From contig JACRCM010000100.1 in assembly GCA_016219025.1 (NCBI GenBank), forward strand, positions 1 to 62,939: DNA of 62,939 nucleotides, read 5' to 3'. Positions within the stretch are counted from its first letter, which is position 1. Every line of letters starts with the position of its first letter. The position numbers were made by a program, and so were the translations under genes. The notes beneath the pieces were generated by a model. That model searched no databases. It saw nothing but the letters and a program-made list of their open reading frames with translations, and was not told the origin of the DNA. This stretch comes from Deltaproteobacteria bacterium. GTDB lineage: Bacteria > Desulfobacterota > GWC2-55-46. Positions 3,486-47,760 of this stretch are shown here, one piece after another.

Positions 3486-3541
3486 AATCCTTCCCATGCC
3501 CCCTTATCCCGCATATGGCCGCTGGCTGGAATAGTGTCTTT

Positions 3542-3730: not shown

Positions 3731-3769
3731 CTCCCCTCCCCCGCCCCTCCCCCTCCCCTCCCCTCCCCC
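3731..3769 (-). repeat. C-rich tract on the plus strand, giving seven G4-5 runs on the minus (transcribed) strand. Potential G-quadruplex / i-motif.
   Basis: CTCCCCTCCCCCGCCCCTCCCCCTCCCCTCCCCTCCCCC lies 50 nt downstream of the stop of the Gly-rich protein gene. Confidence 0.7.
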
Positions 3770-3818
3770 GTCTACAATCGACGGGAGAGAGGCCAGTGAG
3801 AGCATATCAGACTACGCC

Positions 3819-5384: not shown

Positions 5385-5484
5385 CGAATCCTCCTTGGTA
5401 TTGCTCATTAAACAGGCGATGCCTCGCGGCCCTGCCGCCCTTATGAAGGGCACAGCCTAACCTGCGCCCTCTCCGCGGCCCCGG

Positions 5485-14400: not shown

Positions 14401-14622
14401 CGGGTTGAACCGCACGGTAACGCCCGCCTCTATCGTAAGGGTGGCGCTCGAATCGATGACCACGGAGTTCTGCACGACGTAGGGACTTCCCGCGGCCGTC
14501 CACGTGGCGTTGTTATACATGTTGCCGCCGACGAGCGTATCCGCGAACGCGCCCCGCGCGATAAGGAGCGTGGAGAGCGCCAGAAAGAGGAGGCAGATTA
14601 TTATGCGTTTTGCCTTTTCCAC
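5485..14622 (-). CDS. Giant secreted multidomain protein (3045 aa) with beta-helix, IPT/TIG arrays, 7 chitobiase-C-like modules, 2 RCC1 propellers, a jelly-roll domain and a Cys-rich lectin-like insert
   Basis: GTG start, with MEKAKRIIICLLFLALSTLLIARGAFA. The N-terminal region is parallel beta-helix-like. There are many IPT-like units (e.g. ITSVTPAQALVGQPGTNVTITGANF). Seven modules follow (T/A)(I/V)YYT(T/L/A)DG..P...LKY(F/Y)AVD..GN. Two blocks of about 7 RCC1 repeats (WG.N..GQLGDGT) lie at roughly 9715-10755 and 7215-8255. A single uninterrupted 9.1-kb ORF. Confidence 0.9.
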   Translation of the reverse strand: MEKAKRIIICLLFLALSTLLIARGAFADTLVGGNMYNNATWTAAGSPYVVQNSVVIDSSATLTIEAGVTVRFNPGTFIRVQYGAVRAMGTAASPVTLTSWADAPGGSPAPGGWNGIAFMDNANDGATVFNNTIIRYGSTLTMEAASPTFNNCVFDSNAGYVMSIDLASYPHGAGNGAVNNGVDAISVASGDMTASGAWDLKGIPYYLTGVVSVGVSPRVTGMSPSYLEQGSAVNAVITGTRLAGLSKVTFADAGITASVLPGGTDASVPVLVTVGGAVPYGTAGFTVAVSAGVAASPNPVTITPAMPHITSVTPAQALVGQPGTNVTITGANFSPSSVVTYDVVTISSTYVSPTEIQAVIPLQTVTSSTKAIKVANPDPRTSGATLVSNAFVVPVALPQFTVTPSTVAMRQGETASIAVSIPYPAPAGGLTVMLTSTNTSVLTAPASVVIAEGTQSANVTLTALSTVNTRNVTLEVHANANNWTGAIATVTVMPQPTVNLIPTTLLTGVGYVNIITVELTDPAPAGGVTVVLGATVANIISHPATVTIAVGATRAQFNVSTYNAGSTTLAASVSGYATGDSCAITVKPVEMIPIGPVTSSEVGVTLTPPAPAAAASAYGPVGSAPVGVVLGSAVTGIAPDRGIIGAQGLVVRVNGIGLGTATDIAFAPADGITVVAGSFVKAGDGSYAEVTVNIDANAPTGVRAVSISAPGGSIKGAASFYVTWPLPEILSVIPIYGVDGATIDLNLHGGNFKEALSISFTPSDGITVENPPTINADGSMAVSTIVIAADAATGPRLVRITTMGGTSTDVASVANTFNVWATQGTTYTPVVSGEVGVYMMTPAPSAPQVTYTPIDAQPVGVAVGAAFTGLSPAHGEVNSAAYAVRASGAGLGAVNGVSFMPSDGITVAPGSIVPAADGTYVDFQIDIAGDAPLGTRTVVVTTASGAVLPGATGANLFFVSMPPPVLTGMNPISKAQGATFTLTLIGANFNYASAVAFTPPTGVSIQNPPAVNAAGTIATVTVSIDAGAATSTRVVTLTTPGGTTSAIAGAANTFYLSPGETYTPQVSAEVGVYVTPPAPGAVVNTYGPAASTEVGVYLTPPPPQATTVSNAYGPIVTGETGVAVGPIVASISPTYINPGTTVTFTLTGYGLENVGRFEVYPADGITVVNWTAAPDGRSATVTLVADAAMPTGYKTIIPFSMWADTTPPMAVLDTTGGTYAMPQKVTITADEPSTIYYTLDGGTPTSASLVYTRPIDITTNTTLKYYAVDAANNPSAVQTEAFNITGSAVVAWGANWYGQLGDGTTTDRHTPEQGGYGISGVVALAGGSYHTLALKNDGTVWAWGYNSKGQLGDGTYAASYTPVQVSNLTGVVAISAGLYHSVALRNDGTVWCWGYGYYGQLGNGGSGSQNVPVQASGPGNVTAVSAGHYHTIALTGNGDVYGWGYNYYGQAGDGSGGSYNKYKYAPVKSAVTGAVSIGTSGYHSLAVLASGEVRGWGYNPYGQLGDGTTTTSYAPVAAAGITNAVSVKAGLTSSAALLSDGTVWTWGYNRYGDLGDGTYNNRYTPGQVPGLAGVTMIGSGEDHYIAVDNNGAVWAWGNNGDGEMGDGTTTHRGSPWQVAGITGATGVFGGRYHSMALAPDAFAPIVTASKAAGAYTVGPSATVDVALTANEPATVYYTTDGTVPTTGSAVYSGVISMNAATTLQYFAVDAAGNAGGVETLVYTIVVDAAPPVVTPSVGAGVYTAPQHVTLSANEAATIYYTADGTEPTTASAQYGGVPFYIAGTTTLKYFAVDGFGNAGPVVTQVYEVIVSVAAASESFESGGLAALPWGASGDGQWTVQSGAVYNGTYAAQSPALLDNQSASMAITTQTAAGSVTFWYSTDSQSGGDYLNFYIDEAIQGSWSGTIAWTQAAFTVSAGSHTFRWEYSKNSCCTSGQDRVWIDDIVFPAAADTFAPYVSASPAGGSYAVASGGTKSVTLGANEPAVIYYTADGTAPTTASTVYAGPVVISADTTLKYFAVDTAGNQGAVATDVYALVVDNTPPSVTASASGGTYGGPRKVTFTTDEPAAVYYTLDASAPSASSLSVVQGVPVYVAADATLRFIAVDLAGNASAAQSTNLAFIGRSVMTWGANWSGQLGDGTYNSASTPVNIGFSGATQADGGSDHTAVLRNDGTVWSWGDNGYGQLGNGTTASSLTPVQASGLTGVIAVATGGNHTLALRNDGTVWAWGYNNYGQLGDGTNINRSAPVQVLGLSNVVAISGGWEYSMSLRGDGTVWAWGYNNYGQLGDGTNTTRYAPVRVPNLSGVAGVTASWNHSLALMSDGTVRAWGSNNNGQLGDGTYANSLVPVVVNNLSGVVALASGDDPNSIALLGDGTVRTWGASWNGDLGNGTNTGSPVTVQPAGVSGIISVAMGWDHSLTLKNDGTILAWGYNSDGELGDGTTIDRWSAVQVSGITAAGGVVGAGGDHSIALVVDVTPPTTTASPVGGAYGAAQAVTLTANEPAAIYYTTDGSTPNTTGDGTIAVQSGTYGANCGTGTGNVTPHLSSTCDGLTTCSYYITTGSIGDPAVGCAKDYAAAWTCSPSGQVFTATASAEAAGQTITLSCAGAGTTAVYSAPISIASSATLKFYAVDAVGNAETVKTETYAIGLAALPWAVASADNGRRDVVDGSVQAALYSGDGDGPATFMRAGGLDVMSKYEARIRRVVLDTTPPVTTASPAGGAYAAPQRVALTADEPATIYYTTDGSTPTPASAVYAGPINVLASATLNYFAVDAAGNIEAVNTQTYSVNIPMGGFRVPAAPFANVIYGGPAPSIISVQPIISAAGSTFTLTINGTALNDATAVSFIPPDGMNVSSTITVNAAGTQAAVQVHIDGFATGGDRVVVISTIYGRSDTAASAANTFTVYRPVASNGMIMAGAGNGADKAEGLMGTGPLALAAQLVDAALCPLDAGRLTPDVMMAAASIADKGPLPSVPWSMRGIERALTAMSGSGYKDSGKRGGGVVLTSLTATDAPRVFNRMTHEPLYVSGQTSVWRNAAFRRGPPDFWA

Positions 14623-15069: not shown

Positions 15070-15792
15070 TCATTGCGCGGTCTGCCGCTTCCATTCGGGA
15101 AACCCGCCATACAGTATGCGGACCATCTTGAACCCGGCGCGGCGAAGCTCCTCTGCCGCCTTGCGGCCGGCGTTATCCGCGCCGTCGACCACGACGACCG
15201 GCTCGTCCTTTGCCCAGCCAGAAGAAGTCCTCAATACCCGCGCGGGCTTGACGTTCACGGCCCCGGGCACGTGTCCGGCCTTGAATCCCTGCGCTGGCCT
15301 TATATCCACTATCACCATGCCCGTTCCGTTCTGCGCCGCCCTGCTCAACTCGGGCGCTGTGATAAAGTCCACAAGGCCGCCAGGCACGACGCCCTGCGGC
15401 GCGGCTATGGCCGCGTCAGTCCCACTCTCCCAGTGTGCCATGCCGCCGTCCATTATAAAGACCGAGGCATACCCGGCGGAGTCGAGCTTGCCTGCGGCCT
15501 CGCCCGCCTCGACCGAGCCGATGCCGTCGTCATAGAGCACGATGACCGCGTCCTTGGGAAAACCCTTCTTATGCACGACGAACGCCGGGACGTTTATCGC
15601 GCCCTCTATGTGCTTTCTCCGATACGCGATAGCGGTCCTCGCGTCCACGAGCAGGAACCTCTCCGCGCCTTCCTGCATGGAGCGGACGTCCTCGGCGGAG
15701 ATGAACCCGTAGGCGTCCGCCTCGGACGGGTGGATGACGCCTAACGACGCGACGGAGAACGCGAACGCGAAGAAGAAAAACGTCTTTTTCAT
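15070..15792 (-). CDS. Secreted tandem rhodanese-homology-domain protein lacking any cysteine (240 aa from the ATG at 15792)
   Basis: The ORF track gives 15070-15849. The ATG at 15792 is preceded by GGAGGG and gives MKKTFFFFAFAFSVASLGVIHPSEADA. Two rhodanese-like halves are present (LLVDARTAIAYRRKHIEGAINVP; VIVDIRPAQGFKAGHVPGAVNV). The active-site loop positions read YDDGIGS and VDGADNAGRK. The mature protein contains no Cys. Confidence 0.8.
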   Translation of the reverse strand: MKKTFFFFAFAFSVASLGVIHPSEADAYGFISAEDVRSMQEGAERFLLVDARTAIAYRRKHIEGAINVPAFVVHKKGFPKDAVIVLYDDGIGSVEAGEAAGKLDSAGYASVFIMDGGMAHWESGTDAAIAAPQGVVPGGLVDFITAPELSRAAQNGTGMVIVDIRPAQGFKAGHVPGAVNVKPARVLRTSSGWAKDEPVVVVDGADNAGRKAAEELRRAGFKMVRILYGGFPEWKRQTAQ

Positions 15793-15836
15793 AATGCCCT
15801 CCGCCCCGTTGAGGTGGCCGGGTTTATCGTCATGCC

Positions 15837-18800
15837 TTATGGCGCCCAATTCAGGATACCCTCCGTGGCGTAGATTATGTACCCCTCGCCAGGCTCTATG
15901 GCGAAGTCGTCGCCCACCGTCGCCCCGTTCGCAACAGCCAGCGTGAGCATCTTCCCGGCAACGGCGTCGAACCTGGATATGCTCAATATCCGGCCCGCGC
16001 CCAGCGACCTTACAAGGTCAGAGGCCGTGTAGATGAAGTGCTCGTGGCTGCACGGATAAGTCACAAGGTTGAAGCCCGCCTTGAGGTTCAGGCCTCCGCA
16101 GCCCAGGCCGGTTATGGCCCCGCCGTCGAGGTCAGCGGCCTTGTCCGCGTATAGATAGACCGCCGTGTTCTCCGTTAGCGTGAAGTTGTTGCCGGCCGAT
16201 GCGCCCAGACCGTCGTAACCCGCGCCCAGCATCTGGCCGGAGGGGCCGTCGAACGAATATATCGAATTCACGGCCGCGCTCGGCTTCCATGCGTCGAGGA
16301 GGCCGAATGCGTTCGCGTAGGCGTCGGCCGTGGGCCTCGTCACCGCCATGACGTTGAGGCCCTGCTCGACCCTTACGTTCTCCTTCATGGCGAGCTCGGC
16401 GGAGTATATCTGCCACGTGCCTGAGCGGTTGTCCTGCCACACGAGCCTTCTGCCGGATATGGCCGGCTCCTCCTGAGAGTGCGGCTCGGTTACGAGCTTC
16501 GTCACCTGACGCGACGGCATGTGCATGAGAGAGAGGCCGGAGTCGGCCCAGCCAGCGTCGTAGTCGGTGTAGACGGCGTAACCGGATGCGGCCTTGGGCC
16601 CGGTCTCGTCGGTCAGAGTCGAGGTGAGGCGCTCCACCGCGCCGTTGGAGAGCCTGTAGGAGTAGAGTTCCCTGTTGCCGTCGCGCTGATCGACCCAGAC
16701 GGCCTTCCCGTCCGCGATGGAGGGGCGCGTCTGGTTATAGATGTCGTTCGTAAGGTTCTTTTCCGCCCCCGTGCCGATGTCATACATGTATATGTCGCCG
16801 AGGCCGTTCCTGTAGTCCTCCCAGACGACCTTGTTCAGATAGAGCGCAGGGTTTATCTGGTCGCGAACGCCGGTCGTGAGGCGCAAGGTCTGGCCCGTGG
16901 CGATGACGTAGACGTAGATGTCGCGGTTCGTCGCCGGGCCGCTCTGATACGCGACGTACCTGCCGTTGACGGCCGGCATCGCGTCGTCATAAGCGCTCGA
17001 CGTAATGACCGTCCTGCTGCCTGAGAGCATGTCGTATAGGACGACGTCCCAGTTGCCCGCGGTCCTGTCCTGCCATACCACGTAGTTGCCGTTGACGTTC
17101 GGCCGTATCTGGTCCGCGAGCGTGCCCGCGGTCAGGTTAGTCGTCGTCCCGTCGGTAAAGTCGTGCATGTAGACGTCCCACTTGTTGTCGCGGAAGTCCT
17201 GCCAGACCGCGCGCGGCCCGGATATCGACGGATACCTCTGGTCCCCAGCGCCGGCGGAGAGCGGATTGGCCTGTATCACGTCGGACACCGTCACCGTGGC
17301 GAATGACGCGGCCGAGTGCCCGAGTTTGTCAATGACCGTGAGCCTTATGGTGTATTCGCCTGGCGGGACGAGATAACCGCCGGAGGACTTGCCGTCCCAC
17401 GCGATATCGGCGGCGGCTCCGGGGGCAAGCGCGCCGGTCAGGGACGCAACCTTGGCCGGCAGATTTACGTCCGCCGGGCCGAACGCGCCAGGGTATACGT
17501 CGTAGACAGCGTCAAGCGACGGCATGGCGTCGGCCACGAGCGCAGTCGCCGTCGCGCTCCTTGCCAGACCAGACGCTATCGAGGCGCCCGGGGTGATTGT
17601 CTTGGGCAGGATGCCGTAAGAGCTCACAGAGGGCGCGTCGTCGTCAACGAAGACGCTGACGCCCTTGGGCGTCTCGGCGTTGCCCGCGCGGTCAACGCTG
17701 TAATACGTGATGGTATGCGGCCCGGCGTGCGTCCTGTCCGGCGGTATCGCATACTGGAGCGTGAACGGCAGGCCCGGCACGAAGCCCGTGCCGTCGATGT
17801 CGTATAGCATGGACTGGACGCCGCTTATGTCGTCCGCGGCCGTGAAGAGGAAGTTAGTCTGGGAGGTCACGTAGACCGGGTCGGCCCCGTATTTAACGTC
17901 GCCTATTACGATGGCCGTCACCGGCGGCGTCACGTCGACGGCCGGGGTCTCGTAGACGACCGTATACGAGCCGGTCGTGTCGAAGTCGATGATGTTGAGG
18001 TAGAAGACCGAAGGCTCCTGCTGGAGGCTGTTCGGCTTTATCTCGCTTATCCATGCGTTGTTCGCATTCAACGCCTTGCCGTCGGAGCGGGTGACGCTGC
18101 GAATCGGCAGGTTGCCGCTCGCCGGGTCGATGACCTTCGAGTATGTCCACGCCGGAAGCACGTCCGTGGTGATGATGGTCGTCGGGTCTGCGGGCGTGGG
18201 AGAACCGGCCGACGACGACGCCACCGTGTTGACCGCATACTCGACGCACTCAGAGGCGTATATCATTGTGGGAGACCTGTCCCCGAGCTGGTCGTCGTAG
18301 GAGAGGTAGTCGAGGACGTTGTCGCTGCCCGGCAGGTCGACCATCATCTCGTGCGTCAGGAAGTGCGTCTTGACCTCTTTCAGGAGGGACGTGAGCGTGC
18401 CGCCAAGCTCGCTCGCGTGGGTGAACGAGGCGGTGAACTCCGTGAACCTGCCTGAGAGGGTCGTGACCATCCGCCAACGCCCGGTCGCGCACCTCTTGGA
18501 GTCGATATTCCCGAAGTTCAGGGTGAGCGTCGGCGCGACCGGCTGGTCGTTGACCGAGCTTCCGAGTATCCTGAAGTCGATGAGCAAGCCCTGTTTGTTC
18601 TCGACGATCCTGGGCTGGCCAGACGTTATCGTGAGGTTGTACCCGGGGCCGAAGCCGAAATTCCTGACCCTTGCGCCGAGACTGAAGGGCTTTGGCGCCT
18701 CGACCGTGGCCGTGAACGGGTCGTCAGCCCAGACCTCGCGCGGCAAGAAATAATCGACTATAAGCTCCGGCTGGGGCTTCACGGTAATCCTGTCCGGCAT

Positions 18801-19244
18801 CATGGGTATGACCTGATCCGCTCCGTTCGCGGTAAACGTTATCTCTCCGCCTATGAAGTAATAGACGCCCTGCGGGGCCTGCCCGCCCGCGCCCGGCGAC
18901 GGGATGAAGAGCCAGTGCACCTCGGCCTGCCCCCCGGCCGGTATCGTGCCCGTTCCGTCCACGGCGCTTATATTCGTCATGGACTGTATCTTCGTGAAGA
19001 AGAGCGCGCCCGCATCGTCGCCGTTGGCGTCCTTGATGTAGAGAGAGACGTTGACGCCGTCTAGCGGCACGTCGGGCAGGTTGTTGGTGATGATGAGCCT
19101 GCCGTCGAAGGCGAGGCGCTCCAAGGCCAGCTCCTGTGGTATCTCTATCTTGACCTTCGCGCAGACCGCGGCATGGGCCGCCCCATAAAAGAGCACGGCC
19201 GCCAGAGCCAGCACGAACGTCAATATGTATTTGAATGGCTTCAT
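15837..19244 (-). CDS. Large secreted protein (1135 aa): unknown N-terminal domains, Ig-like modules, a 7-blade PD40/TolB-like beta-propeller, and a C-terminal GFNL...GEGY module
   Basis: Signal-like MKPFKYILTFVLALAAVLFYGAAHA. Seven repeats of about 45 aa (roughly 16390-17240) have the consensus P.(I/V).G..(V/A)VWQD.R.GNWD(I/V)Y.YD...G....LT. FlgD-Ig-like segment: GEYTIRLTVIDKLGHSAASFATVTV. C-terminal LNLKAGFNLVTYP...IEPGEGYIIYA. Confidence 0.85.
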   Translation of the reverse strand: MKPFKYILTFVLALAAVLFYGAAHAAVCAKVKIEIPQELALERLAFDGRLIITNNLPDVPLDGVNVSLYIKDANGDDAGALFFTKIQSMTNISAVDGTGTIPAGGQAEVHWLFIPSPGAGGQAPQGVYYFIGGEITFTANGADQVIPMMPDRITVKPQPELIVDYFLPREVWADDPFTATVEAPKPFSLGARVRNFGFGPGYNLTITSGQPRIVENKQGLLIDFRILGSSVNDQPVAPTLTLNFGNIDSKRCATGRWRMVTTLSGRFTEFTASFTHASELGGTLTSLLKEVKTHFLTHEMMVDLPGSDNVLDYLSYDDQLGDRSPTMIYASECVEYAVNTVASSSAGSPTPADPTTIITTDVLPAWTYSKVIDPASGNLPIRSVTRSDGKALNANNAWISEIKPNSLQQEPSVFYLNIIDFDTTGSYTVVYETPAVDVTPPVTAIVIGDVKYGADPVYVTSQTNFLFTAADDISGVQSMLYDIDGTGFVPGLPFTLQYAIPPDRTHAGPHTITYYSVDRAGNAETPKGVSVFVDDDAPSVSSYGILPKTITPGASIASGLARSATATALVADAMPSLDAVYDVYPGAFGPADVNLPAKVASLTGALAPGAAADIAWDGKSSGGYLVPPGEYTIRLTVIDKLGHSAASFATVTVSDVIQANPLSAGAGDQRYPSISGPRAVWQDFRDNKWDVYMHDFTDGTTTNLTAGTLADQIRPNVNGNYVVWQDRTAGNWDVVLYDMLSGSRTVITSSAYDDAMPAVNGRYVAYQSGPATNRDIYVYVIATGQTLRLTTGVRDQINPALYLNKVVWEDYRNGLGDIYMYDIGTGAEKNLTNDIYNQTRPSIADGKAVWVDQRDGNRELYSYRLSNGAVERLTSTLTDETGPKAASGYAVYTDYDAGWADSGLSLMHMPSRQVTKLVTEPHSQEEPAISGRRLVWQDNRSGTWQIYSAELAMKENVRVEQGLNVMAVTRPTADAYANAFGLLDAWKPSAAVNSIYSFDGPSGQMLGAGYDGLGASAGNNFTLTENTAVYLYADKAADLDGGAITGLGCGGLNLKAGFNLVTYPCSHEHFIYTASDLVRSLGAGRILSISRFDAVAGKMLTLAVANGATVGDDFAIEPGEGYIIYATEGILNWAP

Positions 19245-19245
19245 C

Positions 19246-19433
19246 TATATCCCTGCCGCAACGCGCCCTGTTATCCAACCCGGCGCATCCGGCCCTCGAA
19301 CCGCGGCCTATATCCCTGCCGCTTTCGTCCTGTTATCCAACCAGGCGCATCCGGCCCTTGAACCGCGGCCTACATCCCTGCCGCTTTCGTCCTGTTATCC
19401 AACCCGGCGCATCCGACCCTCGAACCGCGGCCT
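19246..19433. repeat. Tandem array of 3 x 62-63 nt that fills the whole intergenic gap between the 2172-aa and 1135-aa genes
   Basis: Units start at 19246, 19309 and 19371: TA(T/C)ATCCCTGCCGC(AACGCGC/TTTCGTC)CTGTTATCCAACC(C/A)GGCGCATCCG(G/A)CCCT(C/T)GAACCGCGGCC. The right end abuts the upstream stop (19432-19434). The left end supplies the RBS-like AGGGAT before the ATG at 19244. Confidence 0.95.
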
Positions 19434-22400
19434 ACTGGCAGCCGCCCCCAAACGTTATGCCGCCTCCGCCATATCCGCCTCCGCCGCCGCCTCCGCCGCC
19501 GCCGCCGCCTCCGCCGCCGGTATATCCGCCGCCGGTGTAGGTTATGGACGGCATGTTCTCAAAGATGCAGAGGAAGCAGTTGACGCCGTTTTGGATGGTA
19601 TCGAGGAGGCCGAGGCCGCCGAGACCTTCAACGCCCGCGGCCTCGCCCGCGGCCTTTATCGCGTTCAGTATGTCGGCGAGGGACGGCCCTGTTATTATTT
19701 TGCACGCGGCCCCGAACCTGTCGGCCGCGTCGCTCCCGATGGCGGCCTGGGTGACGGCCTTGCCGCACTCGCACACGTCCTTGTTCTTTATGCACTTGCA
19801 GGCCGCCGCCGCGAGGTTTGCCACCTTTTGAAGCCGCCCGGCGGACATGAGCCCGCCCGCGAACCCGAGGCAATCGCACCAGTCGCACTTAGAGTCGCAC
19901 AGCAGTCCCGTCGGGTCGTATTGCTTCTTGGGCACTATGGTCTTCTTCGACGGGGCCCTGGTCTGCGTCAGGACGCCGGCGGCACAGGTGTATTCGGCGG
20001 CCACGTCCACCTCGACCGGTATCTCGCTGCACGGGTCGACCGGCTCAGGCGACTTGTACGGGTTGACCGTAATCGTATACGGGATTATCACCGTCTCCTG
20101 CGCGTTCAGCCTCGGTATCTGGGTGATAAGCGTCTCCACCTTGACGCCCGGGCCTGCTGAGGCGTCGACCCTTACGTTGTCCGCGGCCACGAGGCCGTGG
20201 TTCGTCACCCTGTATTCGCCCGCGTATGTCGAGCCTATCTCGATTTCGAGCTTCTCATACGACGGCTCTATCGTGATGACCGGGGCCGGGACGTTCGTCT
20301 CGAAGGTCGCCTGAAGCGTTATCTCATACGGATCGCGTATCATAACCGGCGTGACAGTCCACTCGTAGGTAACGAAGACGTTGTTCATGAAGACGTCCAC
20401 GGCGGTCGTGATGTCGGGCGAGACCTCGAACGTGCCTATGACGTTCTCGTGCCCCGGCGCGCTTATCTTGTAGTTGTACATGCCGATGGGCAGGGTGTCG
20501 AAGGCTATCTCGCCGTTGGCGCCGGTCGCGCCAGTAAGCACTATGTCGCCGAGCACCTGATGCCCGAAGGTCAAGGACGCGCCCGGCACGCGCTGGTTCA
20601 AGGAGTCCGTAGCCTGGAAGTGCACCCCGCCCCTGTCGCTAGAAGTGACCGTCGCAAAGAGGTTGACCGTATACGGGACATGGTTGTCGGAGTGGATTAT
20701 TATCGCGTCCGAATGCACGCCCTGAGAGACGTCCGCCCCGGGGCGGAACGATACGCCCACGTCCACCGAGTCTCCAACCGCCACCGTGCCGAGCTGCAAC
20801 GGCGTAGTAACGCTCATCCACGGCGTCGTTGGCGCCTCCAGCCAGACGTTCTCAAGCGGCGCGTAACCGGCCACCCTCATCTTGAACGACGCGGTCTTTA
20901 TCGTATCCGTGGTCACGCCAAGCTCTATGAAGCCGGGGTCGGTGACTATCGTCGGGAGCGCCCTTATGAGCGAGAGGTTCACGTCCATCGTCCTCGTCAG
21001 CCCCTCGGCGGTCGTCGCCGTGATGGTCACGAACGAGGCGTCAGGCGCGTCTATGGCCGCGTCCATCGTGAGTGTGGCCGAGGTTGCCGCGCCACCGTCG
21101 ATGGCCGAGGCCGTATTTGCAGTATCGAGCGTTGCCGTTATGCCGGACCCATCGGCATGACTCAACTGCAAGCCAGTCAATGCCGTCTCGCCGAAGTTGC
21201 GTAGCGATACCGGCAGACTGAATTGCGCGTTCTTCGACATCCTGATGCTGGCGGACGATGGATCGAAGGCAAGGCCGTATATGACGAAACCGGACTGTAT
21301 GGGCTTATCGTAGACCGTCGGGTGCACGGCCCAGACGCTGTAGTTGCCCGCCTCGCCCGCAAGCGGCGTAAACGTCACGGAATACGCGCCATTGGCGTCG
21401 GTAAGGGCGTAGAGATACCGGTCGAAGCCCTTGACGCTTATCCCGACCTTGACTATCGCGTTCGGCGCTGGCGCATTCGTCGCCGAATCATAGGCAAAGC
21501 CTGAGAGGACGACGTTCTGGCCGGTGTCGTAGGCCGCTCTGTCGGACGCCACGGTCGCGTAGTACGTGGCATTGGTTACAGTCACCGCCGACTTGCCCGT
21601 AAGCGGCCCGCCCTGCACCTGATCGGCCCTGCGGTAATGGTAGTAGATATTATCCACGTGCGCCTCAAGATAGACCTTGTCAGGTATGGACGAAGGCACG
21701 AGGAAGGTCACGGGCACGGAGAGGAAGCTCCCGCCGGACGGCATCTGGGCCATCGAGTACGTGGCGTAGTTGATGCAGCCGACGCCCGTGTGTTTGAGGT
21801 TGCCGCCCGCGAGCACGTTGCCGTCGCCGTCTTTGAGATATACGTATACGTCCGGCGACGCCTGGCCGTTCGTGGCCGAGAGGAACTCCACCGGCACGGA
21901 GCCGTAGTTGTAGACCTTCAAGCGCACGCTCGCATACGCGCCCCTGACTATCGGGTCGTTGAATATTTCGATCTTCCTGCCGGGGTCGTAGGCGTTGTGC
22001 GTGAAGGCCGCGACCCTTTGCACGGTCACGTCGGCAGTGGAGAGCTGTGTCTGCGTGACGTTCAGGAGCCTGTAGTCCACTATGCCCGTGCCTACGGTGA
22101 ATATCTTATCGACGCTATACGCCGCGCCCGGCGCAATGCTGACCGCGGCAGGGTCCGCGAACTGCGCGACCGTGCCGAGCTGGTCTTTAAGCTCGTATGC
22201 CACGGGGCTTATGTTCACGTCCGAGGTATGCGCGTTCGTCATCTTGACGGAGACGCCCTCTATATACTGCTTGTTCAGCAGGTTGCCGCCGGACGGGGAC
22301 ATGCCGTACCTCTCAAGGGTCGCCGCCACCGGGTATACCGCGCCGTTGCGGGCGACGCCCTCGTGCCCCGCCGCGTCTACCGCGCTTACGCTGTAGGTCT

Positions 22401-25400
22401 GGACCGCGGAGCCGTCGAATGACGCGTCGGTATAGATGCTGCCGGACACCGGAGAGGCCGTGAGCTTGACGCCGTTCTTGTAGACGTTATAGCCGGTCAC
22501 GTCCGTGGCCGGAGAAGCGGTCCAGCCCAGATACGCATACGCCCCCTCGTAAGCCACGACCGCGAGCGAACCCATGACCGGAGGCGCGTCAACGGTGAAC
22601 GCGGCCGTAACCGTGACCGTCCGTCCCGCCTTGTCAACGGCCTGAACCGCGAGCGTCTTGGCCCCGTCCGCGTCGATGGCCGTCCCTGCCTGATAGAGGA
22701 GGCCGTTCAAGGTCATGGAGAAGTGGTCAAGGTTCGCGTCCGTGACGTTTATAACCGGGGTCACGGCGGAGCCATACAGGTCGCCGTTGGCAACGCCCTG
22801 TATGTCAATTGCCGGGTCTGTCAGGTCGATGGTGAACGCCGCGTCCTTCGTGGTGAGCCGCGCCGAGGTGTCCATCGCCTCTATGTGAAGGGCATGACGG
22901 CCTTCAGCGGCCACCGGAGTGCCGCTCGCATAAGGCGCGCCGTCAAGGCTCGCGGTGACGCTCAAGAGGGAGGCATCGTTTACGGTTATGACGGGCGTCA
23001 GGGCCGCCGGACTGAACTGGCCGTCCGTTACGCCCGTGACGATGACCTCGGGCGGCGCAAGGTCGTAGAGGAAAGCGGCGCCGGCGGAAGGCGCCCCCTC
23101 ATTGCCAGCCGCGTCAACGGCCGTAACCGCGTAGTAATAGGTCGCGTCGGCGGGAGGCGTATCGGACGCCGCGAGGGCGGCCATACCGGTGAATATGCGG
23201 GCCGCGTCCGCGAGACTGACTATCGGAGAGCGCGCCCTGTAGACGTTGTAGCCAGCAACGGCCTCTCCGGCCGGCGCAATCCACGCAAGGGAGACGGCGC
23301 TTCCGGCAAGGTTCGCCGTAAGTCCGCTGGCCTGCCCCGGAGGAGTTCTGTCGGAGACTCCGCTGGCCGGGCCGCTTGCAGCGCTCTCATTGCCCGCCGA
23401 ATCCACGGCGCTCACCGTATAGGCATATGTCCCATCGGCTGAGGGCAGGTCTGAATAAGCAAGGCCGGCAACGCCGGAGGCGGCAAGCGCGGCGCCGCGG
23501 TAGACGTTATACGAGGCCGCGTCAGTTGCACCCGGCCAAATGAGGTCTACATGCCCGGCGCTTGCAGTGGCCGCCGCAAGACTTGCCGGGACGCCCGGCG
23601 CGGTGGTGTCGAGCGTCATGAAAGCGCCGGAGGTTACCTCGGCGCCTATATTGCCGAGGCCGTCCCGCGCCTCCATTATAAAGAGCCACTGGCCGTCGGA
23701 CATGGCCTGCGTGACGTTGAGCGAACCTGACCACGCCGCACCCGCGCCGGCAAGAGGCACATCGGCAAGAACGCCGGTGGGCGATTGGAGTTTCAGGAGC
23801 GGGGTTGCGCCCGCCGTCTCGTCAAGGTTGAGCGTGACCGCATACGTCCCCGGCTTATAAAGGGCCTTTGACGGAGAGACGGTTATCGTCCCGGCCGGGC
23901 CGGCCGTGTCTATCTGAAGCACGCCGCCGGAGGTTATCTCCGTGCCCTTGTTGCCGAGCATGTCGCGGCCTGAGAAACCGAAGGCCGCCGACCCGGACGG
24001 CTGCAACGCGCCGACGGTATACGCGCCGGTCCATTGGTTCGTCCCGGCCTGGGTAAGCTCTATGCCGACGGGCAGGCCGCCGGGCGGGGTTATGCCAAGA
24101 TACGGCGTCCCGTTTATGGCCTCGGAGGTGGTAAGCGTTACCTGTACCGCGCCCGGCCCGACCGGGGACGCCGGAGTGGTCGTGACTACGGCCGTCGGCG
24201 GCAGGCTGTCGCGCGCGGCGGACAGGGTGCCGGAGAGGACACTCTCGTTGCCGGCCTGATCGAGCGCCGTTATACCGTAATAATAGACCCCTTCCACGGG
24301 CGGGTAATCGTCCATGGACGTGGCTGAAAGGCTCCTTATCAGCGTCGCGCCGGAGGCCGTTGTAAACGGCGACATCGAGCGGTAGACCCTGTATGCGGCA
24401 GGGACCTCGGTGGCCGGGGACGTCCACGCGAGCGCTATCCTGCCGCCGGAGAAGGCATCGGCGGCCACGAGCGCGGGAGGCGGAGGAGGCCCGGTGTCGA
24501 TGGTCAGCATGACGCCCTGCGACGGCTGGGACGTGCCTATGGCGTCGCCCGCCCTGGCCGTAAGGAGGTTCGAGCCGTCTATAAGGGTCGCGGACGCAAG
24601 ATAGAAGTTCCCCCAGACGTCGGCGTTGACCCTGCCTATATACGTGCCGTTGTCATAGACGGACACGAGGGTGTTCGGCTCGGACGTTCCTGAGACGTTT
24701 AGCGTGGCGACGCTGACGGCCCCTGCGATAGGCGATGTGATTGCGGGAGGCAGAGGAGGTGCCTTCGACAGGACGACCGTCCTTACGCCGACCGACGAGC
24801 GGCCCACGCCGTCGTAGGCCACGGCCTTTATCTCATAGCTCTTATCCGGCAGCTGGATGACGTTCCACCAATACGATATGGAGCCGCCCCATGCGGTCTG
24901 CGCCAGGACGCCGTCCACGTATAATTCCATCCGGGCGATGCCGGAAGAGTCGCTCGACGACGCGGCGATGGTCAATGGCCTCGTGACGGTCGAATCTGCC
25001 CCCGGGCTTGCGACGAGGAGCGCCGGGTCGGTGGTGTCGAGGAGCATCTGCGCGGACGCGGTCTGGGTGTTGCCGGTCGGGGACTTGAACTTCACGTAGA
25101 GGCTTTTATACCCGTCGCCGGTCGAGAGCGCGAACGGCGCAAGGCCGGAGAACGGCTGATACGACGCGCCGGTAAAACCCGCGTCCTCGCTGATCATGTA
25201 CTCGGAACAGGTAAGGCATAAAAGGGAGAGGACTATGTCCGGCGTGGTGGCCGCCGGCCCCGGAGAGGCGAACGACGCGCCGAGTATCGGCACGAGGCTC
25301 GACCACGGCGCGTAGACGACCCCGTCGCTAACCGGATTGCCGAGGCCGGAGGCGTTGACCAACCCGCCGGTTGCGGTATCGTCGGATGTGTCTTTTGGCC

Positions 25401-25950
25401 CGGTTGGGTGCCCCCACCAGTTGTTCGTGGCGGTTACCGGGTTTGATACGTCTTCGACCGTGACCGCCGTTGCATTGCCCTCGATGACGGAATTGGCGAT
25501 CGACGGATGCGCCCCGGCCTTCACCTCGACGCCGATGACGTTGCCCGATATGACGGAATTCGTGATGTTAGGAGAAGACGTCCCCTCGAGCCTTATGCCG
25601 GAGGAACTGTTCTTCACCGCGGCCACGTCGATGGCGGGAGAGGCGTTATACAGGCAGATGGCCGGGCCCCCGGACGCCCCGGCATACTCGACGGCCGTGC
25701 CGCGAAAACTCGTATAACTCGCCGAACCCCACACCTCAACGCCCTGCCACGGCGATACGGCCGAGCCGGTAAGGGTCGCACCGGCGGCCTGGAGCGTGTC
25801 GCGGACGATGAGCTTGCCCTCGGAAGCGGCCTTGACGGTGACGCCGTCGCCGATGACGAGGGTAGCCGCGTCCGCGGCCCCATGCCATAAGGCGGCGGAC
25901 GCCGCAACCAGCAATATCAGTATGAGTATCCGGGTTCGCATGATTATCAC
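19432..25950 (-). CDS. Giant secreted multidomain protein (2172 aa): NosD-like beta-helix, Ig/FN3 arrays, carboxypeptidase-regulatory-like domains, a C-terminal Cys-rich region and a poly-Gly tail
   Basis: Signal-like (M)IIMRTRILILILLVAASAALWHGAADA. Start is either GTG 25950, overlapping the upstream stop as GTGA, or ATG 25941. PbH1-like repeats: NSVISGNVIGVEVKAGAHPSIANSVIEGNATAVTV. Repeated FN3-like Y(R/N)VY(R/K) units. Ends ...TGGGYTGGGGGGGGGGGGGGGYGGGGITFGGGCQ. Confidence 0.9.
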   Translation of the reverse strand: MIIMRTRILILILLVAASAALWHGAADAATLVIGDGVTVKAASEGKLIVRDTLQAAGATLTGSAVSPWQGVEVWGSASYTSFRGTAVEYAGASGGPAICLYNASPAIDVAAVKNSSSGIRLEGTSSPNITNSVISGNVIGVEVKAGAHPSIANSVIEGNATAVTVEDVSNPVTATNNWWGHPTGPKDTSDDTATGGLVNASGLGNPVSDGVVYAPWSSLVPILGASFASPGPAATTPDIVLSLLCLTCSEYMISEDAGFTGASYQPFSGLAPFALSTGDGYKSLYVKFKSPTGNTQTASAQMLLDTTDPALLVASPGADSTVTRPLTIAASSSDSSGIARMELYVDGVLAQTAWGGSISYWWNVIQLPDKSYEIKAVAYDGVGRSSVGVRTVVLSKAPPLPPAITSPIAGAVSVATLNVSGTSEPNTLVSVYDNGTYIGRVNADVWGNFYLASATLIDGSNLLTARAGDAIGTSQPSQGVMLTIDTGPPPPPALVAADAFSGGRIALAWTSPATEVPAAYRVYRSMSPFTTASGATLIRSLSATSMDDYPPVEGVYYYGITALDQAGNESVLSGTLSAARDSLPPTAVVTTTPASPVGPGAVQVTLTTSEAINGTPYLGITPPGGLPVGIELTQAGTNQWTGAYTVGALQPSGSAAFGFSGRDMLGNKGTEITSGGVLQIDTAGPAGTITVSPSKALYKPGTYAVTLNLDETAGATPLLKLQSPTGVLADVPLAGAGAAWSGSLNVTQAMSDGQWLFIMEARDGLGNIGAEVTSGAFMTLDTTAPGVPASLAAATASAGHVDLIWPGATDAASYNVYRGAALAASGVAGLAYSDLPSADGTYAYTVSAVDSAGNESAASGPASGVSDRTPPGQASGLTANLAGSAVSLAWIAPAGEAVAGYNVYRARSPIVSLADAARIFTGMAALAASDTPPADATYYYAVTAVDAAGNEGAPSAGAAFLYDLAPPEVIVTGVTDGQFSPAALTPVITVNDASLLSVTASLDGAPYASGTPVAAEGRHALHIEAMDTSARLTTKDAAFTIDLTDPAIDIQGVANGDLYGSAVTPVINVTDANLDHFSMTLNGLLYQAGTAIDADGAKTLAVQAVDKAGRTVTVTAAFTVDAPPVMGSLAVVAYEGAYAYLGWTASPATDVTGYNVYKNGVKLTASPVSGSIYTDASFDGSAVQTYSVSAVDAAGHEGVARNGAVYPVAATLERYGMSPSGGNLLNKQYIEGVSVKMTNAHTSDVNISPVAYELKDQLGTVAQFADPAAVSIAPGAAYSVDKIFTVGTGIVDYRLLNVTQTQLSTADVTVQRVAAFTHNAYDPGRKIEIFNDPIVRGAYASVRLKVYNYGSVPVEFLSATNGQASPDVYVYLKDGDGNVLAGGNLKHTGVGCINYATYSMAQMPSGGSFLSVPVTFLVPSSIPDKVYLEAHVDNIYYHYRRADQVQGGPLTGKSAVTVTNATYYATVASDRAAYDTGQNVVLSGFAYDSATNAPAPNAIVKVGISVKGFDRYLYALTDANGAYSVTFTPLAGEAGNYSVWAVHPTVYDKPIQSGFVIYGLAFDPSSASIRMSKNAQFSLPVSLRNFGETALTGLQLSHADGSGITATLDTANTASAIDGGAATSATLTMDAAIDAPDASFVTITATTAEGLTRTMDVNLSLIRALPTIVTDPGFIELGVTTDTIKTASFKMRVAGYAPLENVWLEAPTTPWMSVTTPLQLGTVAVGDSVDVGVSFRPGADVSQGVHSDAIIIHSDNHVPYTVNLFATVTSSDRGGVHFQATDSLNQRVPGASLTFGHQVLGDIVLTGATGANGEIAFDTLPIGMYNYKISAPGHENVIGTFEVSPDITTAVDVFMNNVFVTYEWTVTPVMIRDPYEITLQATFETNVPAPVITIEPSYEKLEIEIGSTYAGEYRVTNHGLVAADNVRVDASAGPGVKVETLITQIPRLNAQETVIIPYTITVNPYKSPEPVDPCSEIPVEVDVAAEYTCAAGVLTQTRAPSKKTIVPKKQYDPTGLLCDSKCDWCDCLGFAGGLMSAGRLQKVANLAAAACKCIKNKDVCECGKAVTQAAIGSDAADRFGAACKIITGPSLADILNAIKAAGEAAGVEGLGGLGLLDTIQNGVNCFLCIFENMPSITYTGGGYTGGGGGGGGGGGGGGGYGGGGITFGGGCQ

Positions 25951-26888
25951 TTCATCCCGAAGCTGCCCGATACGTTGAATACGTCGGTCTGGTCAACGGA
26001 GCCGTCTCCGTTCATGTCGGAGTCGCCGTTGAAGCACGCGCCGCCCCGGGCCGTGGCGTTCCATTTCACCTCTCTTAGCACGTCGAGGATGTTGACCTCG
26101 CCGCTGCAGTCGAGGTCCTGCATGAGCGCGCAGGTCACGGGCGTCTGAACGTCTATCTTCTCGGCGTCGGGCACCAGCTTGTAGAAATGCTCGACGGCGC
26201 ACCCGTCAAGCCCGTGCGACTCGGCAAGCATGACCCGCTCGCCGCCGGTCAGGTTGAGGCTGTAACCGGTGGCCGGGTCGTATAGGTTGTTGAGGTTGAA
26301 GTACGCGGCCCCTGAGCCGCCGGAAGTCAGCGTCGAGAGCGGGTGCGACGCCTTGTTGTCAAGGACGGTCAACGTCACGGCTACGCCGTCAGTGGACGCA
26401 TTGGCGTCCTTCTGATAGACCGGCGGTACGGCGAGGAGACTATTGGCGAACGGCGTCGTCACCCCCGCCGTTGTGGTCATCTGGTATGCCGCCTTCTCCG
26501 TCGTCACCGTTGCCGGGGCCGCGGGGAGCAAGGCGGACTCGGACGTGGACTTCGAGGTAGTAACGGTCTGATAGCAATACAGGGTGTTTGGAGAGAGGTT
26601 GGAGACGGTAACGCGCAGGTTCCCGGTGGAGTCGCCGGAACGCGCCGAGGTGAACGCGCCGTATACCGGCGTTGCGCAATCCGCCATGAACATGGAGATG
26701 GACGGCGCGGACGGTTCGCTTGAGAGCCAGACAACGGTGAATGACGACGGGGTGACGTCGGTTACGGACAGGCCGGAGACCGCGGGCACGCCCGCCTCGG
26801 AGCCGATAGGCAGCACGAGGAGCGCCGACGCGGCCGCAACGGCGGCGAGGCTGATGACGAGTCTCTTGTGCAATGCAACCGCAGCCAT
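25947..26888 (-). CDS. Secreted FN3 + C-terminal dockerin protein (313 aa from the ATG at 26888), first gene of the cluster
   Basis: The ORF track gives 25947-27011. The ATG at 26888 is preceded by GGAGG and gives MAAVALHKRLVISLAAVAAASALLVLPIGSEA. FN3-like: SGLSVTDVTPSSFTVVWLSSEP...LSPNTLYCYQ. The C-terminus has two EF-hand-like dockerin segments, DLDCSGEVNILDV and DMNGDGSVDQTDV. Confidence 0.8.
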   Translation of the reverse strand: MAAVALHKRLVISLAAVAAASALLVLPIGSEAGVPAVSGLSVTDVTPSSFTVVWLSSEPSAPSISMFMADCATPVYGAFTSARSGDSTGNLRVTVSNLSPNTLYCYQTVTTSKSTSESALLPAAPATVTTEKAAYQMTTTAGVTTPFANSLLAVPPVYQKDANASTDGVAVTLTVLDNKASHPLSTLTSGGSGAAYFNLNNLYDPATGYSLNLTGGERVMLAESHGLDGCAVEHFYKLVPDAEKIDVQTPVTCALMQDLDCSGEVNILDVLREVKWNATARGGACFNGDSDMNGDGSVDQTDVFNVSGSFGMK

Positions 26889-47726: not shown

Positions 47727-47760
47727 CCGGCCGGGCCGTCAAACCAAGGGGAGCAGGCAG

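What the first reader, a model, noticed from the sequence alone, without database searches (positions are those of the whole stretch)
25947..26120. Dockerin on the first cluster protein and a cohesin on the seventh: a matched pair in a non-cellulosomal context
**Seen in sequence**
- The C-terminal ~55 aa of the 313-aa protein contain two Ca-binding-loop-like segments, DLDCSGEVNILDV and DMNGDGSVDQTDV, with dockerin spacing.
- The 750-aa protein (about nt 2829-3198) starts with a cohesin-like module: PGDVIGVDIVVDNVANLGGYQFAFNYNQAVLDV...VNFYVKAAG.

**Established knowledge**
- Cohesin-dockerin pairs mediate high-affinity extracellular protein assembly and occur outside cellulosomes.

**Inference**
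- The two proteins dock to each other. This gives the cluster an intrinsic assembly logic, with the FN3-dockerin protein recruited to the cohesin scaffold.
Basis: partly seen in the sequence, partly recalled or inferred. Interest (0 to 1): 0.7.

Follow-up and report, generated by a model that had tools for sequence, protein, structure and literature searches.

The report
Cohesin-dockerin pair joining two surface proteins
Two secreted proteins in this bacterial gene cluster carry a matching "plug" (dockerin) and "socket" (cohesin), and related genomes almost always encode them side by side or fused into one protein, so they very probably snap together outside the cell. It is a new example of a known assembly trick outside cellulose degradation.

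Summary
The 313-aa protein p1 (25947-26888, minus strand) ends in a dockerin with two canonical 12-residue Ca2+ loops. Alone it falls below Pfam's cut-off (18.3 vs 22.9 bits), but the family profile matches solved type-II dockerins (E 2e-8) and a 66-sequence AlphaFold model is confident there (pLDDT 95-98). The 750-aa protein p7 (1027-3279, minus) starts with a cohesin (Pfam 31.5 bits, above cut-off; profile E 3.5e-13 to solved type-II cohesins).

The docking interpretation is supported by comparative genomics, though binding was not measured.
- In 16 of 16 distinct related loci, the dockerin gene is immediately followed by a gene whose product starts with this cohesin.
- Neither module occurs without the other.
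- In one relative both modules are missing and the two proteins form a single chain.
- Dockerin and cohesin divergence correlate (r 0.91).

- p7 has one cohesin, so it is a 1:1 partner rather than a scaffold.
- The window is the only locus where the two genes are apart (22.7 kb).

The pair is an accessory of a wider uncharacterised surface-protein cluster. This is a new member of the known non-cellulosomal cohesin-dockerin class and is moderately interesting.

The parts
25947..26888 (-). p1: secreted 313-aa protein made of signal peptide, FN3, second beta-sandwich ('X-like') and dockerin
   Evidence: ORF and translation. It is identical to database protein P0001. AlphaFold2 with 66 sequences gives pLDDT 94 and pTM 0.87. 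The signal peptide (residues 1-32, cleavage after SEA) is inferred from the sequence.
26499..26786 (-). FN3 domain of p1 (residues ~35-130)
   Evidence: Pfam Pur_ac_phosph_N (E 1.7e-6) and fn3 (E 2e-4), both just under their cut-offs. The model shows seven beta-strands at pLDDT 95-99.
26133..26498 (-). Second beta-sandwich of p1 (residues ~131-252), sitting where the X module sits in type-II X-dockerins
   Evidence: Beta-strands at pLDDT 87-98. Foldseek aligns the model to Coh9-X-DocII (4fl4, 3kcp) and to X-Doc dyads (2b59_B, 4u3s_B, 5m0y_B, 5g5d_B, 5k39_B) at probability 0.99-1.00, but with low TM scores.
25950..26132 (-). Dockerin module of p1 (residues ~253-313). Ca loops lie at 26082-26117 (D258-D269) and 25983-26018 (D291-D302).
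   Evidence: Helices at 267-275 and 300-307; pLDDT 95-98.
1027..3279 (-). p7: secreted 750-aa protein made of signal peptide, one cohesin, an InlB B-repeat, Ig/FN3-like domains and a C-terminal region of unknown fold
   Evidence: No full-length homologue was found; database hits cover only residues ~150-450.
2800..3192 (-). Cohesin module of p7 (residues ~30-160)
   Evidence: Pfam PF00963 at 31.5 bits, above the 24.1 cut-off. It aligns with the N-termini of the proteins encoded directly after the dockerin gene in L001-L006. The profile matches solved type-II cohesins at E 3.5e-13.
3819..5453 (-). p6: conserved glycine-rich ~520-aa secreted protein. In other loci it directly precedes the dockerin gene.
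   Evidence: 46-53% identity to the 514-548-aa proteins of L001-L004 and L006; alignment A5. No Pfam, NCBIfam or PDB match.
5485..14622 (-). p5: 3045-aa giant surface protein (beta-helix, TIG, two RCC1 propellers, eight CHB_HEX_C/Fn3_assoc units). Its N-terminal ~1200 aa are orthologous to the 1230-1430-aa protein upstream of p6 in other loci.
15070..15849 (-). p4: tandem rhodanese protein with a signal-peptide-like N-terminus
   Evidence: Pfam Rhodanese E 5.8e-32. The L003 orthologue is 46% identical.
15837..19244 (-). p3: 1135-aa beta-propeller and Ig-like surface protein
   Evidence: NCBIfam beta_prop_Msarc repeats, E 2e-59. 52% identity over its full length to the first gene of L003.
19432..25950 (-). 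p2: 2172-aa beta-helix/Ig-like protein with no counterpart in the seven related loci compared (L001-L007). Its start overlaps the p1 stop, the position the cohesin gene holds elsewhere.
   Evidence: No BLAST hit to proteins of the related loci. No cohesin by HMM.

Best explanation
**Proposed mechanism.** p1 and p7 are two halves of one extracellular, adhesin-like protein, held together non-covalently by a cohesin-dockerin bond.
- p1 is secreted and carries an FN3 domain plus a second beta-sandwich 'head', followed by a C-terminal Ca2+-binding dockerin that most resembles type-II X-dockerins.
- p7 is secreted and carries a single N-terminal cohesin, followed by InlB-repeat, Ig and FN3-like 'stalk' domains.
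- Binding of the p1 dockerin to the p7 cohesin places the p1 head at the N-terminal tip of p7. This is the same topology as relatives in which head and stalk are one polypeptide.
- The two dockerin repeats differ at the usual contact positions (I267-L268 versus Q300-T301), which suggests one binding orientation, as in type-II pairs.
- The pair is an optional add-on to a conserved surface-protein cluster (giant p5-like protein plus glycine-rich p6) found in Geobacteraceae, Nitrospirota and many other phyla.

**Shown here:** module identities, strict co-occurrence and adjacency, the natural fusion, and correlated divergence.

**Inferred:** the physical binding, its Ca2+ dependence, 1:1 stoichiometry, extracellular location, and the adhesive role.
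For: **Module identity:**

**One of each.** There is exactly one dockerin and one cohesin in the 62.9-kb window and in each related locus.

**Adjacency in related loci**
- 6 of 6 loci seeded by p1 homologues.
- All 6 loci in the p6-seeded genome scan that carry the FN3-X module (L010-L013, L015, L031).
- 4 further distinct loci seeded by the cohesin (L087-L090; L091 duplicates L003).
- In every case the order is p6, FN3-X-dockerin, cohesin protein, and the cohesin module begins within about -15 to +170 nt of the end of the dockerin module.
- Neither module ever appears without the other.

**Fusion.** P0132 in L007 (1382 aa) has FN3-X residues 1-258, 66% identical to P0006. This is joined directly to InlB-repeat, Ig and FN3-like domains homologous to those that follow the cohesin in p7 and the L001/L002/L004 proteins. 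It has no dockerin or cohesin and sits in the same [giant][p6] context. Another 24 of the top 149 family representatives are long proteins with FN3-X and no dockerin.

**Correlated divergence over 17 pairs**
- Dockerin vs cohesin: r 0.91.
- Dockerin vs its own FN3-X: r 0.85.
- Partial correlation of dockerin and cohesin given FN3-X: 0.66.

**Other.** Both proteins have signal-peptide-like N-termini. The Ca-ligand residues D258, D260, D269, D291 and D302 are invariant in the family and intact in the window.
Against: - No interaction was predicted or measured.
- In the window the two genes are 22.7 kb apart with five genes between them. A hairpin-rich 540-nt gap precedes p7, so they are probably in different transcripts.
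- The gene translationally coupled to p1 here is p2, not the cohesin gene.
- The rest of the source genome is unseen, so other cohesins or dockerins may exist.
- The window's own dockerin is below Pfam's cut-off.
- The distance correlation is inflated by shared ancestry and is only suggestive.
- Foldseek TM scores to X-Doc structures are low (0.19-0.34).
Confidence: 0.78

Rival explanations
1. Both modules are real but belong to a wider, promiscuous network. The p1 dockerin and the p7 cohesin mainly bind other partners encoded elsewhere in the genome, or partners on other cells, and gene proximity is incidental.
For: Only 62.9 kb of the genome is visible. In the window the two genes are uncoupled. 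Metagenomes hold many multi-cohesin and Coh-Doc-Coh proteins of more distant cohesin families (L092-L124). [quoted passage not shown]
Against: Strict 1:1 co-occurrence and adjacency in 16 of 16 related loci. The fused L007 variant. The highest distance correlation is between dockerin and cohesin.
Confidence: 0.1
2. The C-terminal segment of p1 is only a Ca2+-binding, EF-hand-like stabilising or clasp module that packs on the preceding beta-sandwich. It does not engage a cohesin. The p7 cohesin-like module serves as a plain Ig-like spacer or binds a non-protein ligand.
For: The Pfam dockerin score is sub-threshold. pTM 0.87 indicates the dockerin packs rigidly on the rest of p1. The profile also picks up EF-hand proteins weakly. 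The second Ca loop has lost canonical ligands in L003, L006 and L010 (DxMGH[DN]).
Against: This does not explain why the two modules are always gained, kept and lost together, or why both vanish in the fused protein. The best matches are dockerins over both repeats at E 2e-8, well ahead of EF-hands at E above 1e-3.
Confidence: 0.07
3. In this particular genome the pair has been uncoupled. After p1 moved to the head of the cluster it now works with p2, whose gene overlaps the p1 stop, and the p7 cohesin is an orphan.
For: The p2 start overlaps the p1 stop, the position the cohesin gene holds in all other loci. p2 has no counterpart among the proteins of L001-L006.
Against: p2 has no cohesin by Pfam (E up to 0.1) or by the family HMM. 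Both modules are intact, with all family-invariant residues. Both genes remain in one same-strand cluster.
Confidence: 0.05

Closest known systems
Type-II cohesin / X-dockerin complexes of cellulosomes (C. thermocellum CipA XDocII-SdbA, PDB 2B59; A. cellulolyticus ScaA XDoc-ScaB Coh, 4U3S)
   Same: The best sequence matches for both modules are type II. The dockerin is preceded by a beta-sandwich, as the X module is. Foldseek's top hits are Coh9-X-DocII and X-Doc chains. The two dockerin repeats are asymmetric. The pairing is 1:1 and attaches one protein to another rather than loading enzymes.
   Different: - No cellulosome context, no glycoside hydrolases and no SLH anchor.
- The host looks like a Gram-negative anaerobe (Geobacteraceae or Nitrospirota relatives).
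- The partner has one N-terminal cohesin.
- The two genes form a conserved bicistronic dyad.
- The dockerin carries family-conserved cysteines (C249, C261, C286).
- Domain orientation differs from solved X-Docs (rmsd 8-9 A).
Non-cellulosomal cohesin- and dockerin-like modules surveyed by Peer et al. 2009 (FEMS Microbiol Lett 291:1, cited in PMC9012536), including the Archaeoglobus fulgidus pair
   Same: Cohesin and dockerin modules occur in organisms that do not degrade cellulose, usually one or a few per genome and without multi-cohesin scaffoldins.
   Different: That survey could not be read here. From memory, it did not describe this FN3-X-dockerin | cohesin gene dyad or its fused variants.
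Clostridium perfringens toxin complexes (NagH/NagJ FIVAR-dockerin with cohesin, PDB 2OZN/2JNK)
   Same: A non-cellulosomal pair links two secreted multidomain proteins, with an accessory module next to the dockerin. 2jnk_A is a weak hit of the dockerin profile (E 0.003).
   Different: Those proteins are glycoside hydrolase toxins of a Gram-positive pathogen, and the genes are not an adjacent dyad. Here no catalytic domain is detected in either partner.
Cohesin/dockerin 'adhesins' noted in ANME archaea and their syntrophic sulfate-reducing partners (Chadwick 2022, PMC9012536; Murali 2023, PMC10553843)
   Same: Environmental anaerobes, including Desulfobacterota, have adhesin-like proteins with Ig or FN3 domains and adjacent cohesin/dockerin domains, proposed to act in cell-cell or matrix attachment.
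   Different: Those reports rest on domain annotation, with no analysis of pairing. Whether they include this family was not tested.

Membership tests
Cohesin (Pfam PF00963) | Sequence matches the family HMM above the curated cut-off | tested here: met
   31.5 bits against a 24.1 cut-off, E 2.3e-7, residues 32-138 of p7.
Cohesin (Pfam PF00963) | Homology to experimentally solved cohesins | tested here: met
   A profile of 7 orthologous modules matches A. cellulolyticus ScaB cohesins 3l8q_A at E 3.5e-13 and 1qzn_A at E 7e-7.
Cohesin (Pfam PF00963) | Nine-stranded beta-sandwich (jelly-roll) fold | not tested
The orthologue alignment of the cohesin could not be submitted (one search rule), and the homologue search with the module alone returned nothing.
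Dockerin (Pfam PF00404) | Sequence matches the family HMM above the curated cut-off | tested here: inconclusive
   The window protein scores 18.3 bits against a 22.9 cut-off. 7 of 9 family members match, best E 1.3e-6. The family profile matches solved dockerins at E 2.1e-8.
Dockerin (Pfam PF00404) | Two duplicated segments, each a 12-residue EF-hand-like Ca2+ loop with Asp/Asn at positions 1, 3, 5, 9 and 12, followed by a helix | tested here: met
   Loop 1 (D258-D269) reads D,D,S,N,D and loop 2 (D291-D302) reads D,N,D,D,D. Helices at 267-275 and 300-307 with pLDDT 95-98.
Dockerin (Pfam PF00404) | Ca2+-dependent binding to a cohesin | not testable with these tools
   Needs ITC or pull-down with and without EDTA, or multimer modelling.
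Type-II cohesin / X-dockerin | Closest relatives of both modules are type II | tested here: met
   The top dockerin hits are 2b59_B, 3kcp_A, 5g5d_B, 5k39_B and 4u3s_B. The top cohesin hits are the ScaB type-II cohesins.
Type-II cohesin / X-dockerin | Ig-like X module directly N-terminal to the dockerin, packed against it | tested here: inconclusive
   A beta-sandwich (131-252) precedes the dockerin, pTM is 0.87, and Foldseek aligns 174-182 columns to X-Doc dyads at probability 0.99-1.00. However, TM is 0.19-0.34 and rmsd 8-9 A. No sequence homology to X modules was shown.
Type-II cohesin / X-dockerin | Partner cohesin sits on a cell-wall anchoring protein (SLH or sortase) | tested here: not met
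   p7 has no SLH or sortase signal in Pfam or NCBIfam. Its C-terminal 300 aa match nothing.
Cellulosome | Scaffoldin with multiple cohesins | tested here: not met
   One cohesin in p7 and one in the whole window.
Cellulosome | Dockerins borne by carbohydrate-active enzymes | tested here: not met
   p1 has only an FN3 domain and a beta-sandwich. No glycoside hydrolase, lyase or esterase catalytic domain was found in the cluster, only accessory beta-sandwich domains.

The most novel reading that the evidence does not exclude
The cohesin-dockerin dyad may be a detachable tip adaptor of a previously undescribed extracellular structure, built by the widespread giant-protein plus glycine-rich p6 cluster. 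That cluster occurs in Geobacteraceae, Nitrospirota, Burkholderiales, Gammaproteobacteria, Acidobacteriota, Rokubacteria and Myxococcota. Splitting head from stalk would let cells exchange or regulate the FN3-X head, for example for partner or surface recognition in anaerobic aggregates. The pair would also be an orthogonal, cysteine-stapled type-II-like cohesin-dockerin specificity from Gram-negative bacteria.
Probability: 0.15. Interest if true: 0.7.

Novelty: new member of a known kind. Interest (0 to 1): 0.45.

Why it matters
- It gives a clean, testable case of what cohesin-dockerin pairs do outside cellulosomes. Here one pair appears to replace a peptide bond between the head and stalk of a surface protein, with natural fused and split versions available for comparison.
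- It supplies a set of about 17 diverged orthologous pairs from Gram-negative anaerobes. These could serve as new orthogonal protein-assembly tags.
- It flags an uncharacterised, phylogenetically widespread surface-protein cluster (giant protein plus p6) for study.

Tried and rejected
1. **Complex modelling.** I built cohesin-(GGGGS)6-p1 fusions for 7 paired loci (A4).
2. **Homologue search with the cohesin module alone.** Nothing at E <= 1e-3, so no admissible alignment existed for a cohesin structure model.
3. **Locus scans with A1 and A2.** Both were rejected for lack of a conserved 7-10-column stretch. They were replaced by A5 (p6) and A7.
4. **A second cohesin or dockerin in the window, especially in p2.** None found.
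5. **A relic of the p1 gene in the 540-nt gap between p6 and p7, where p1 sits in other loci.** No FX or DOC HMM hit; only hairpins and a G-rich tract.
6. **P0142 as a second fusion to a p7-like C-terminal domain.** Only motif-level similarity ('AGWNL'; single-comparison E 0.001). Not used as evidence. The p3 and p7 C-terminal similarity was likewise not significant.
7. **First AlphaFold run with 9 sequences.** It left the dockerin at pLDDT 43-60, and Foldseek returned only generic Ig/FN3 hits. The 66-sequence run superseded it.
8. **PDB sequence searches for p6 and for p7 residues 164-750.** Nothing.
9. **Rfam and tRNA scans of the window.** Nothing.
10. **Peer et al. 2009.** Not held in the library.
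Full report
**1. What is at the coordinates**

The window (62,939 bp, 61% G+C) carries seven same-strand (minus) ORFs:

| Gene | Coordinates | Size |
|---|---|---|
| p1 | 25947-26888 | 313 aa |
| p2 | 19432-25950 | 2172 aa |
| p3 | 15837-19244 | 1135 aa |
| p4 | 15070-15849 | 259 aa |
| p5 | 5485-14622 | 3045 aa |
| p6 | 3819-5453 | 544 aa |
| p7 | 1027-3279 | 750 aa |

- The finding's range 25947-26120 is the last 57 codons plus the stop codon of p1.
- The range 'nt 2829-3198' is residues 28-150 of p7.
- Both quoted peptides are present.

**2. Are the modules real?**

*Cohesin.*
- Pfam PF00963 scores 31.5 bits, above the 24.1 cut-off (residues 32-138, E 2.3e-7).
- A profile of the seven orthologous modules (A2) matches solved type-II cohesins of A. 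cellulolyticus ScaB at E 3.5e-13 and 7e-7.

*Dockerin.*
- The window's own sequence scores 18.3 bits (E 0.0026), below the 22.9 cut-off.
- The anatomy is canonical. There are two 12-residue loops, D258-L-D-C-S-G-E-V-N-I-L-D269 and D291-M-N-G-D-G-S-V-D-Q-T-D302, starting 33 residues apart.
- 7 of 9 family members hit Dockerin_1, best E 1.3e-6.
- The family profile A3 aligns over both repeats to the C. thermocellum CipA type-II dockerin (2b59_B) at E 2.1e-8. Further type-II X-dockerins follow, well ahead of EF-hand proteins.
- AlphaFold2 with nine sequences left the dockerin uncertain (pLDDT 43-60).
- With a 66-sequence alignment (A6) the whole protein reached pLDDT 94 and pTM 0.87. The dockerin reached 95-98, with helices at 267-275 and 300-307.
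- Foldseek then ranked the Coh9-X-DocII chains 4fl4/3kcp first (E 8e-7). It aligned six X-dockerin dyads at probability 0.99-1.00, though TM scores were low (0.19-0.34).

*Not chance.*
- A six-frame motif scan found only this double-loop site in the window.
- Family HMMs found exactly one dockerin and one cohesin.

**3. Do they belong together?**

p1 has eight database homologues at 33-49% identity.

*Loci seeded by the dockerin protein (L001-L006).*
- The order is [1230-1430-aa protein][~520-aa protein][FN3-X-dockerin][large protein].
- In four of the six, the last gene overlaps the dockerin gene's stop by 14 nt.
- The N-terminal ~165 aa of that downstream protein is, in all six, homologous to the p7 cohesin.
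- Pfam Cohesin is significant in L001 and L006 and weak in L005.

*Orthology.* BLAST shows the window's p3, p4, p5 (N-terminal 1200 aa), p6, p1 and p7 (cohesin) are orthologues of this set. L003 shows the order p3-p4-p5-p6-p1-p7.

*Scan seeded by p6, which is blind to cohesin and dockerin.*
- It returned 79 genome loci.
- FN3-X, dockerin and cohesin were present in six of them: L010 (Nitrospiria), L011-L013 and L015 (Geobacteraceae MAGs), and L031.
- They were always together and always adjacent in the same order. All other loci had none of the three.

*Scan seeded by the cohesin in metagenomes.* It gave five close relatives, all with p6, FN3-X, dockerin and cohesin adjacent. One duplicates L003.

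*Totals.*
- 16 of 16 distinct loci have the dockerin gene directly upstream of the cohesin gene.
- No locus has one module without the other.
- The window is the only case where the two genes are separated, by 22.7 kb and five genes.

**4. A natural fusion**

A profile search of 1.84 billion representative proteins found 78 family clusters at E <= 1e-30. Of the top 149:
- 57 are short FN3-X-dockerin proteins.
- 24 are long proteins with FN3-X but no dockerin.

One of the long proteins is P0132 (1382 aa):
- It is 66% identical to P0006 over residues 1-258.
- It then continues directly into InlB-repeat, CHB_HEX_C, Glucodextran_B and FN3-like domains.
- These are homologous to the domains that follow the cohesin in p7 and in the L001, L002 and L004 proteins.
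- It has no dockerin or cohesin.
- Its locus L007 has the same [1230 aa][517 aa p6] context and no separate cohesin gene.

So dockerin plus signal peptide plus cohesin is interchangeable with a peptide bond. This is the expected signature if the two modules join the two chains. The geometry also fits: a C-terminal dockerin binding an N-terminal cohesin gives the head-on-stalk order of the fused form.

P0200 carries a cohesin and FN3-X in one chain.

**5. Correlated divergence**

Pairwise distances were compared over 17 pairs:

| Comparison | r |
|---|---|
| Dockerin vs cohesin | 0.91 |
| Cohesin vs FN3-X | 0.86 |
| Dockerin vs its own FN3-X | 0.85 |
| Dockerin vs cohesin, given FN3-X (partial) | 0.66 |
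| FN3-X vs cohesin, given dockerin (partial) | 0.41 |

Shared ancestry inflates all of these values, so I treat this as suggestive only.

**6. Mechanism proposed**

- p1 and p7 both have signal-peptide-like N-termini (inferred).
- I propose that the p1 dockerin binds the single p7 cohesin outside the cell in a Ca2+-dependent way. This mounts the FN3-X head on the p7 stalk.
- The repeats are asymmetric at the usual contact positions (I267-L268 versus Q300-T301), like type-II dockerins. This suggests a single binding mode (inference).
- Family-conserved cysteines (C249, C261, C286) may form a disulfide staple (inference).
- p7 is not a scaffold, since it has one cohesin.
- The pair does not organise the whole cluster. 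The core (p5-like giant plus p6) occurs across many phyla without it. For example, in Geobacter argillaceus the giant and p6 genes are followed by a HAD hydrolase.

**7. Weak points**

- Binding was neither modelled nor measured.
- In this window the genes are uncoupled. A 540-nt hairpin-rich gap precedes p7.
- The gene overlapping the p1 stop is p2. It has no counterpart in L001-L007, the loci compared, and has no cohesin.
- The rest of the genome is unseen.

**8. Comparison with known systems and novelty**

- Non-cellulosomal cohesin and dockerin modules are a recognised class. Examples are Peer et al. 2009, the A. fulgidus pair and the C. perfringens toxin complexes, cited through PMC9012536 and from my own knowledge.
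- Adjacent cohesin/dockerin 'adhesins' have been noted in syntrophic sulfate reducers (PMC10553843).
- Literature searches found no description of this FN3-X-dockerin | cohesin dyad.
- It is not a cellulosome. There is no multi-cohesin scaffoldin, no CAZyme-borne dockerin and no SLH anchor.
- I file it as a new member of the non-cellulosomal cohesin-dockerin class, with type-II-like features.

**9. Context**

The rest of the window is chromosomal housekeeping and signalling:
- FBPase class V and MTHFR.
- Adenylosuccinate lyase and radical-SAM enzymes.
- Three response regulators with HD-type domains and a hybrid kinase-GGDEF protein.

The closest p6 relatives are Geotalea and Geobacter at 54% identity. 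This hints at, but does not establish, a Geobacterales-like source.

Noticed in passing
window 3280-3818 (between p6 and p7): The 540-nt intergenic gap is unusually structured. It has a G-rich GGGGA-type tract (~3731-3769), two long near-perfect palindromic hairpins (~3541-3606 and ~3439-3490), and the only two exact copies in the window of GGTGGGCYGTGCC (3363-3375 and 3633-3645; one forms a terminator-like hairpin). This is the position the dockerin gene occupies in all other loci.
   Followed up: partly
window 3819-5453 (p6); loci L008-L086: The p6 family (~520 aa, signal peptide, conserved N-terminal domain, long glycine-rich region) has no Pfam, NCBIfam or PDB match. It occurs in Geobacteraceae, Nitrospirota, Beta- and Gammaproteobacteria, Acidobacteriota, Rokubacteria, Myxococcota and Verrucomicrobiota. 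It follows a giant surface protein in every locus whose upstream gene was examined (window, L001-L004, L006, L007, L009) and is sometimes present in tandem copies. This looks like an uncharacterised, widespread surface system.
   Followed up: partly
window 19432-25950 (p2), C-terminus near 19432-19600: p2 has no counterpart in the related loci compared (L001-L007). It ends in a cysteine-rich segment followed by a run of about 15 glycines (…YTGGGYTGGGGGGGGGGGGGGGYGGGGITFGGGCQ). Its start overlaps the p1 stop, the slot the cohesin gene holds elsewhere.
   Followed up: partly
window 5485-14622 (p5): p5 is 3045 aa, against 1230-1430 aa for its orthologues. The extra ~1600 aa (roughly residues 1200-2790) hold two RCC1 beta-propellers and eight CHB_HEX_C/Fn3_assoc units, apparently an insertion into the conserved giant protein.
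   Followed up: partly
window 15070-15849 (p4); L003 3320-4033: A tandem-rhodanese protein with a signal-peptide-like N-terminus is conserved inside this surface-protein cluster. That is an unexpected companion for adhesin-like proteins.
   Followed up: no
P0200 (859 aa): One chain carries a cohesin of this family (77-220), two repeats, the FN3-X module (439-631) and a T9SS/FlgD-Ig-like C-terminal domain, but no dockerin. This is a different fusion order from L007.
   Followed up: partly
L003, L006, L010 dockerins: The second Ca2+ loop has lost canonical ligands (D-x-M-G-H-[DN]…), while the first loop and the adjacent cohesin are kept. These may be one-calcium dockerins.
   Followed up: no
L092-L124 (metagenome loci): More distant cohesins (HMM scores below 70 bits) occur as tandem arrays of 3-4 cohesins and as Coh-Doc-Coh proteins. 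These are scaffoldin-like architectures in environmental metagenomes, unrelated to the dyad studied here.
   Followed up: no
window 414-896 (minus strand): A 160-aa ORF with a signal peptide lies directly downstream of p7 on the same strand. It may be an eighth cluster gene and was not analysed.
   Followed up: no
window 46572-48891, 57788-61105, 61364-62398: Three response regulators with HD_5/HD domains and a hybrid GAF-PAS histidine kinase-receiver-GGDEF protein lie 20-35 kb from the cluster. This is cyclic-di-GMP-type signalling that could regulate surface or biofilm functions. No link was tested.
   Followed up: no
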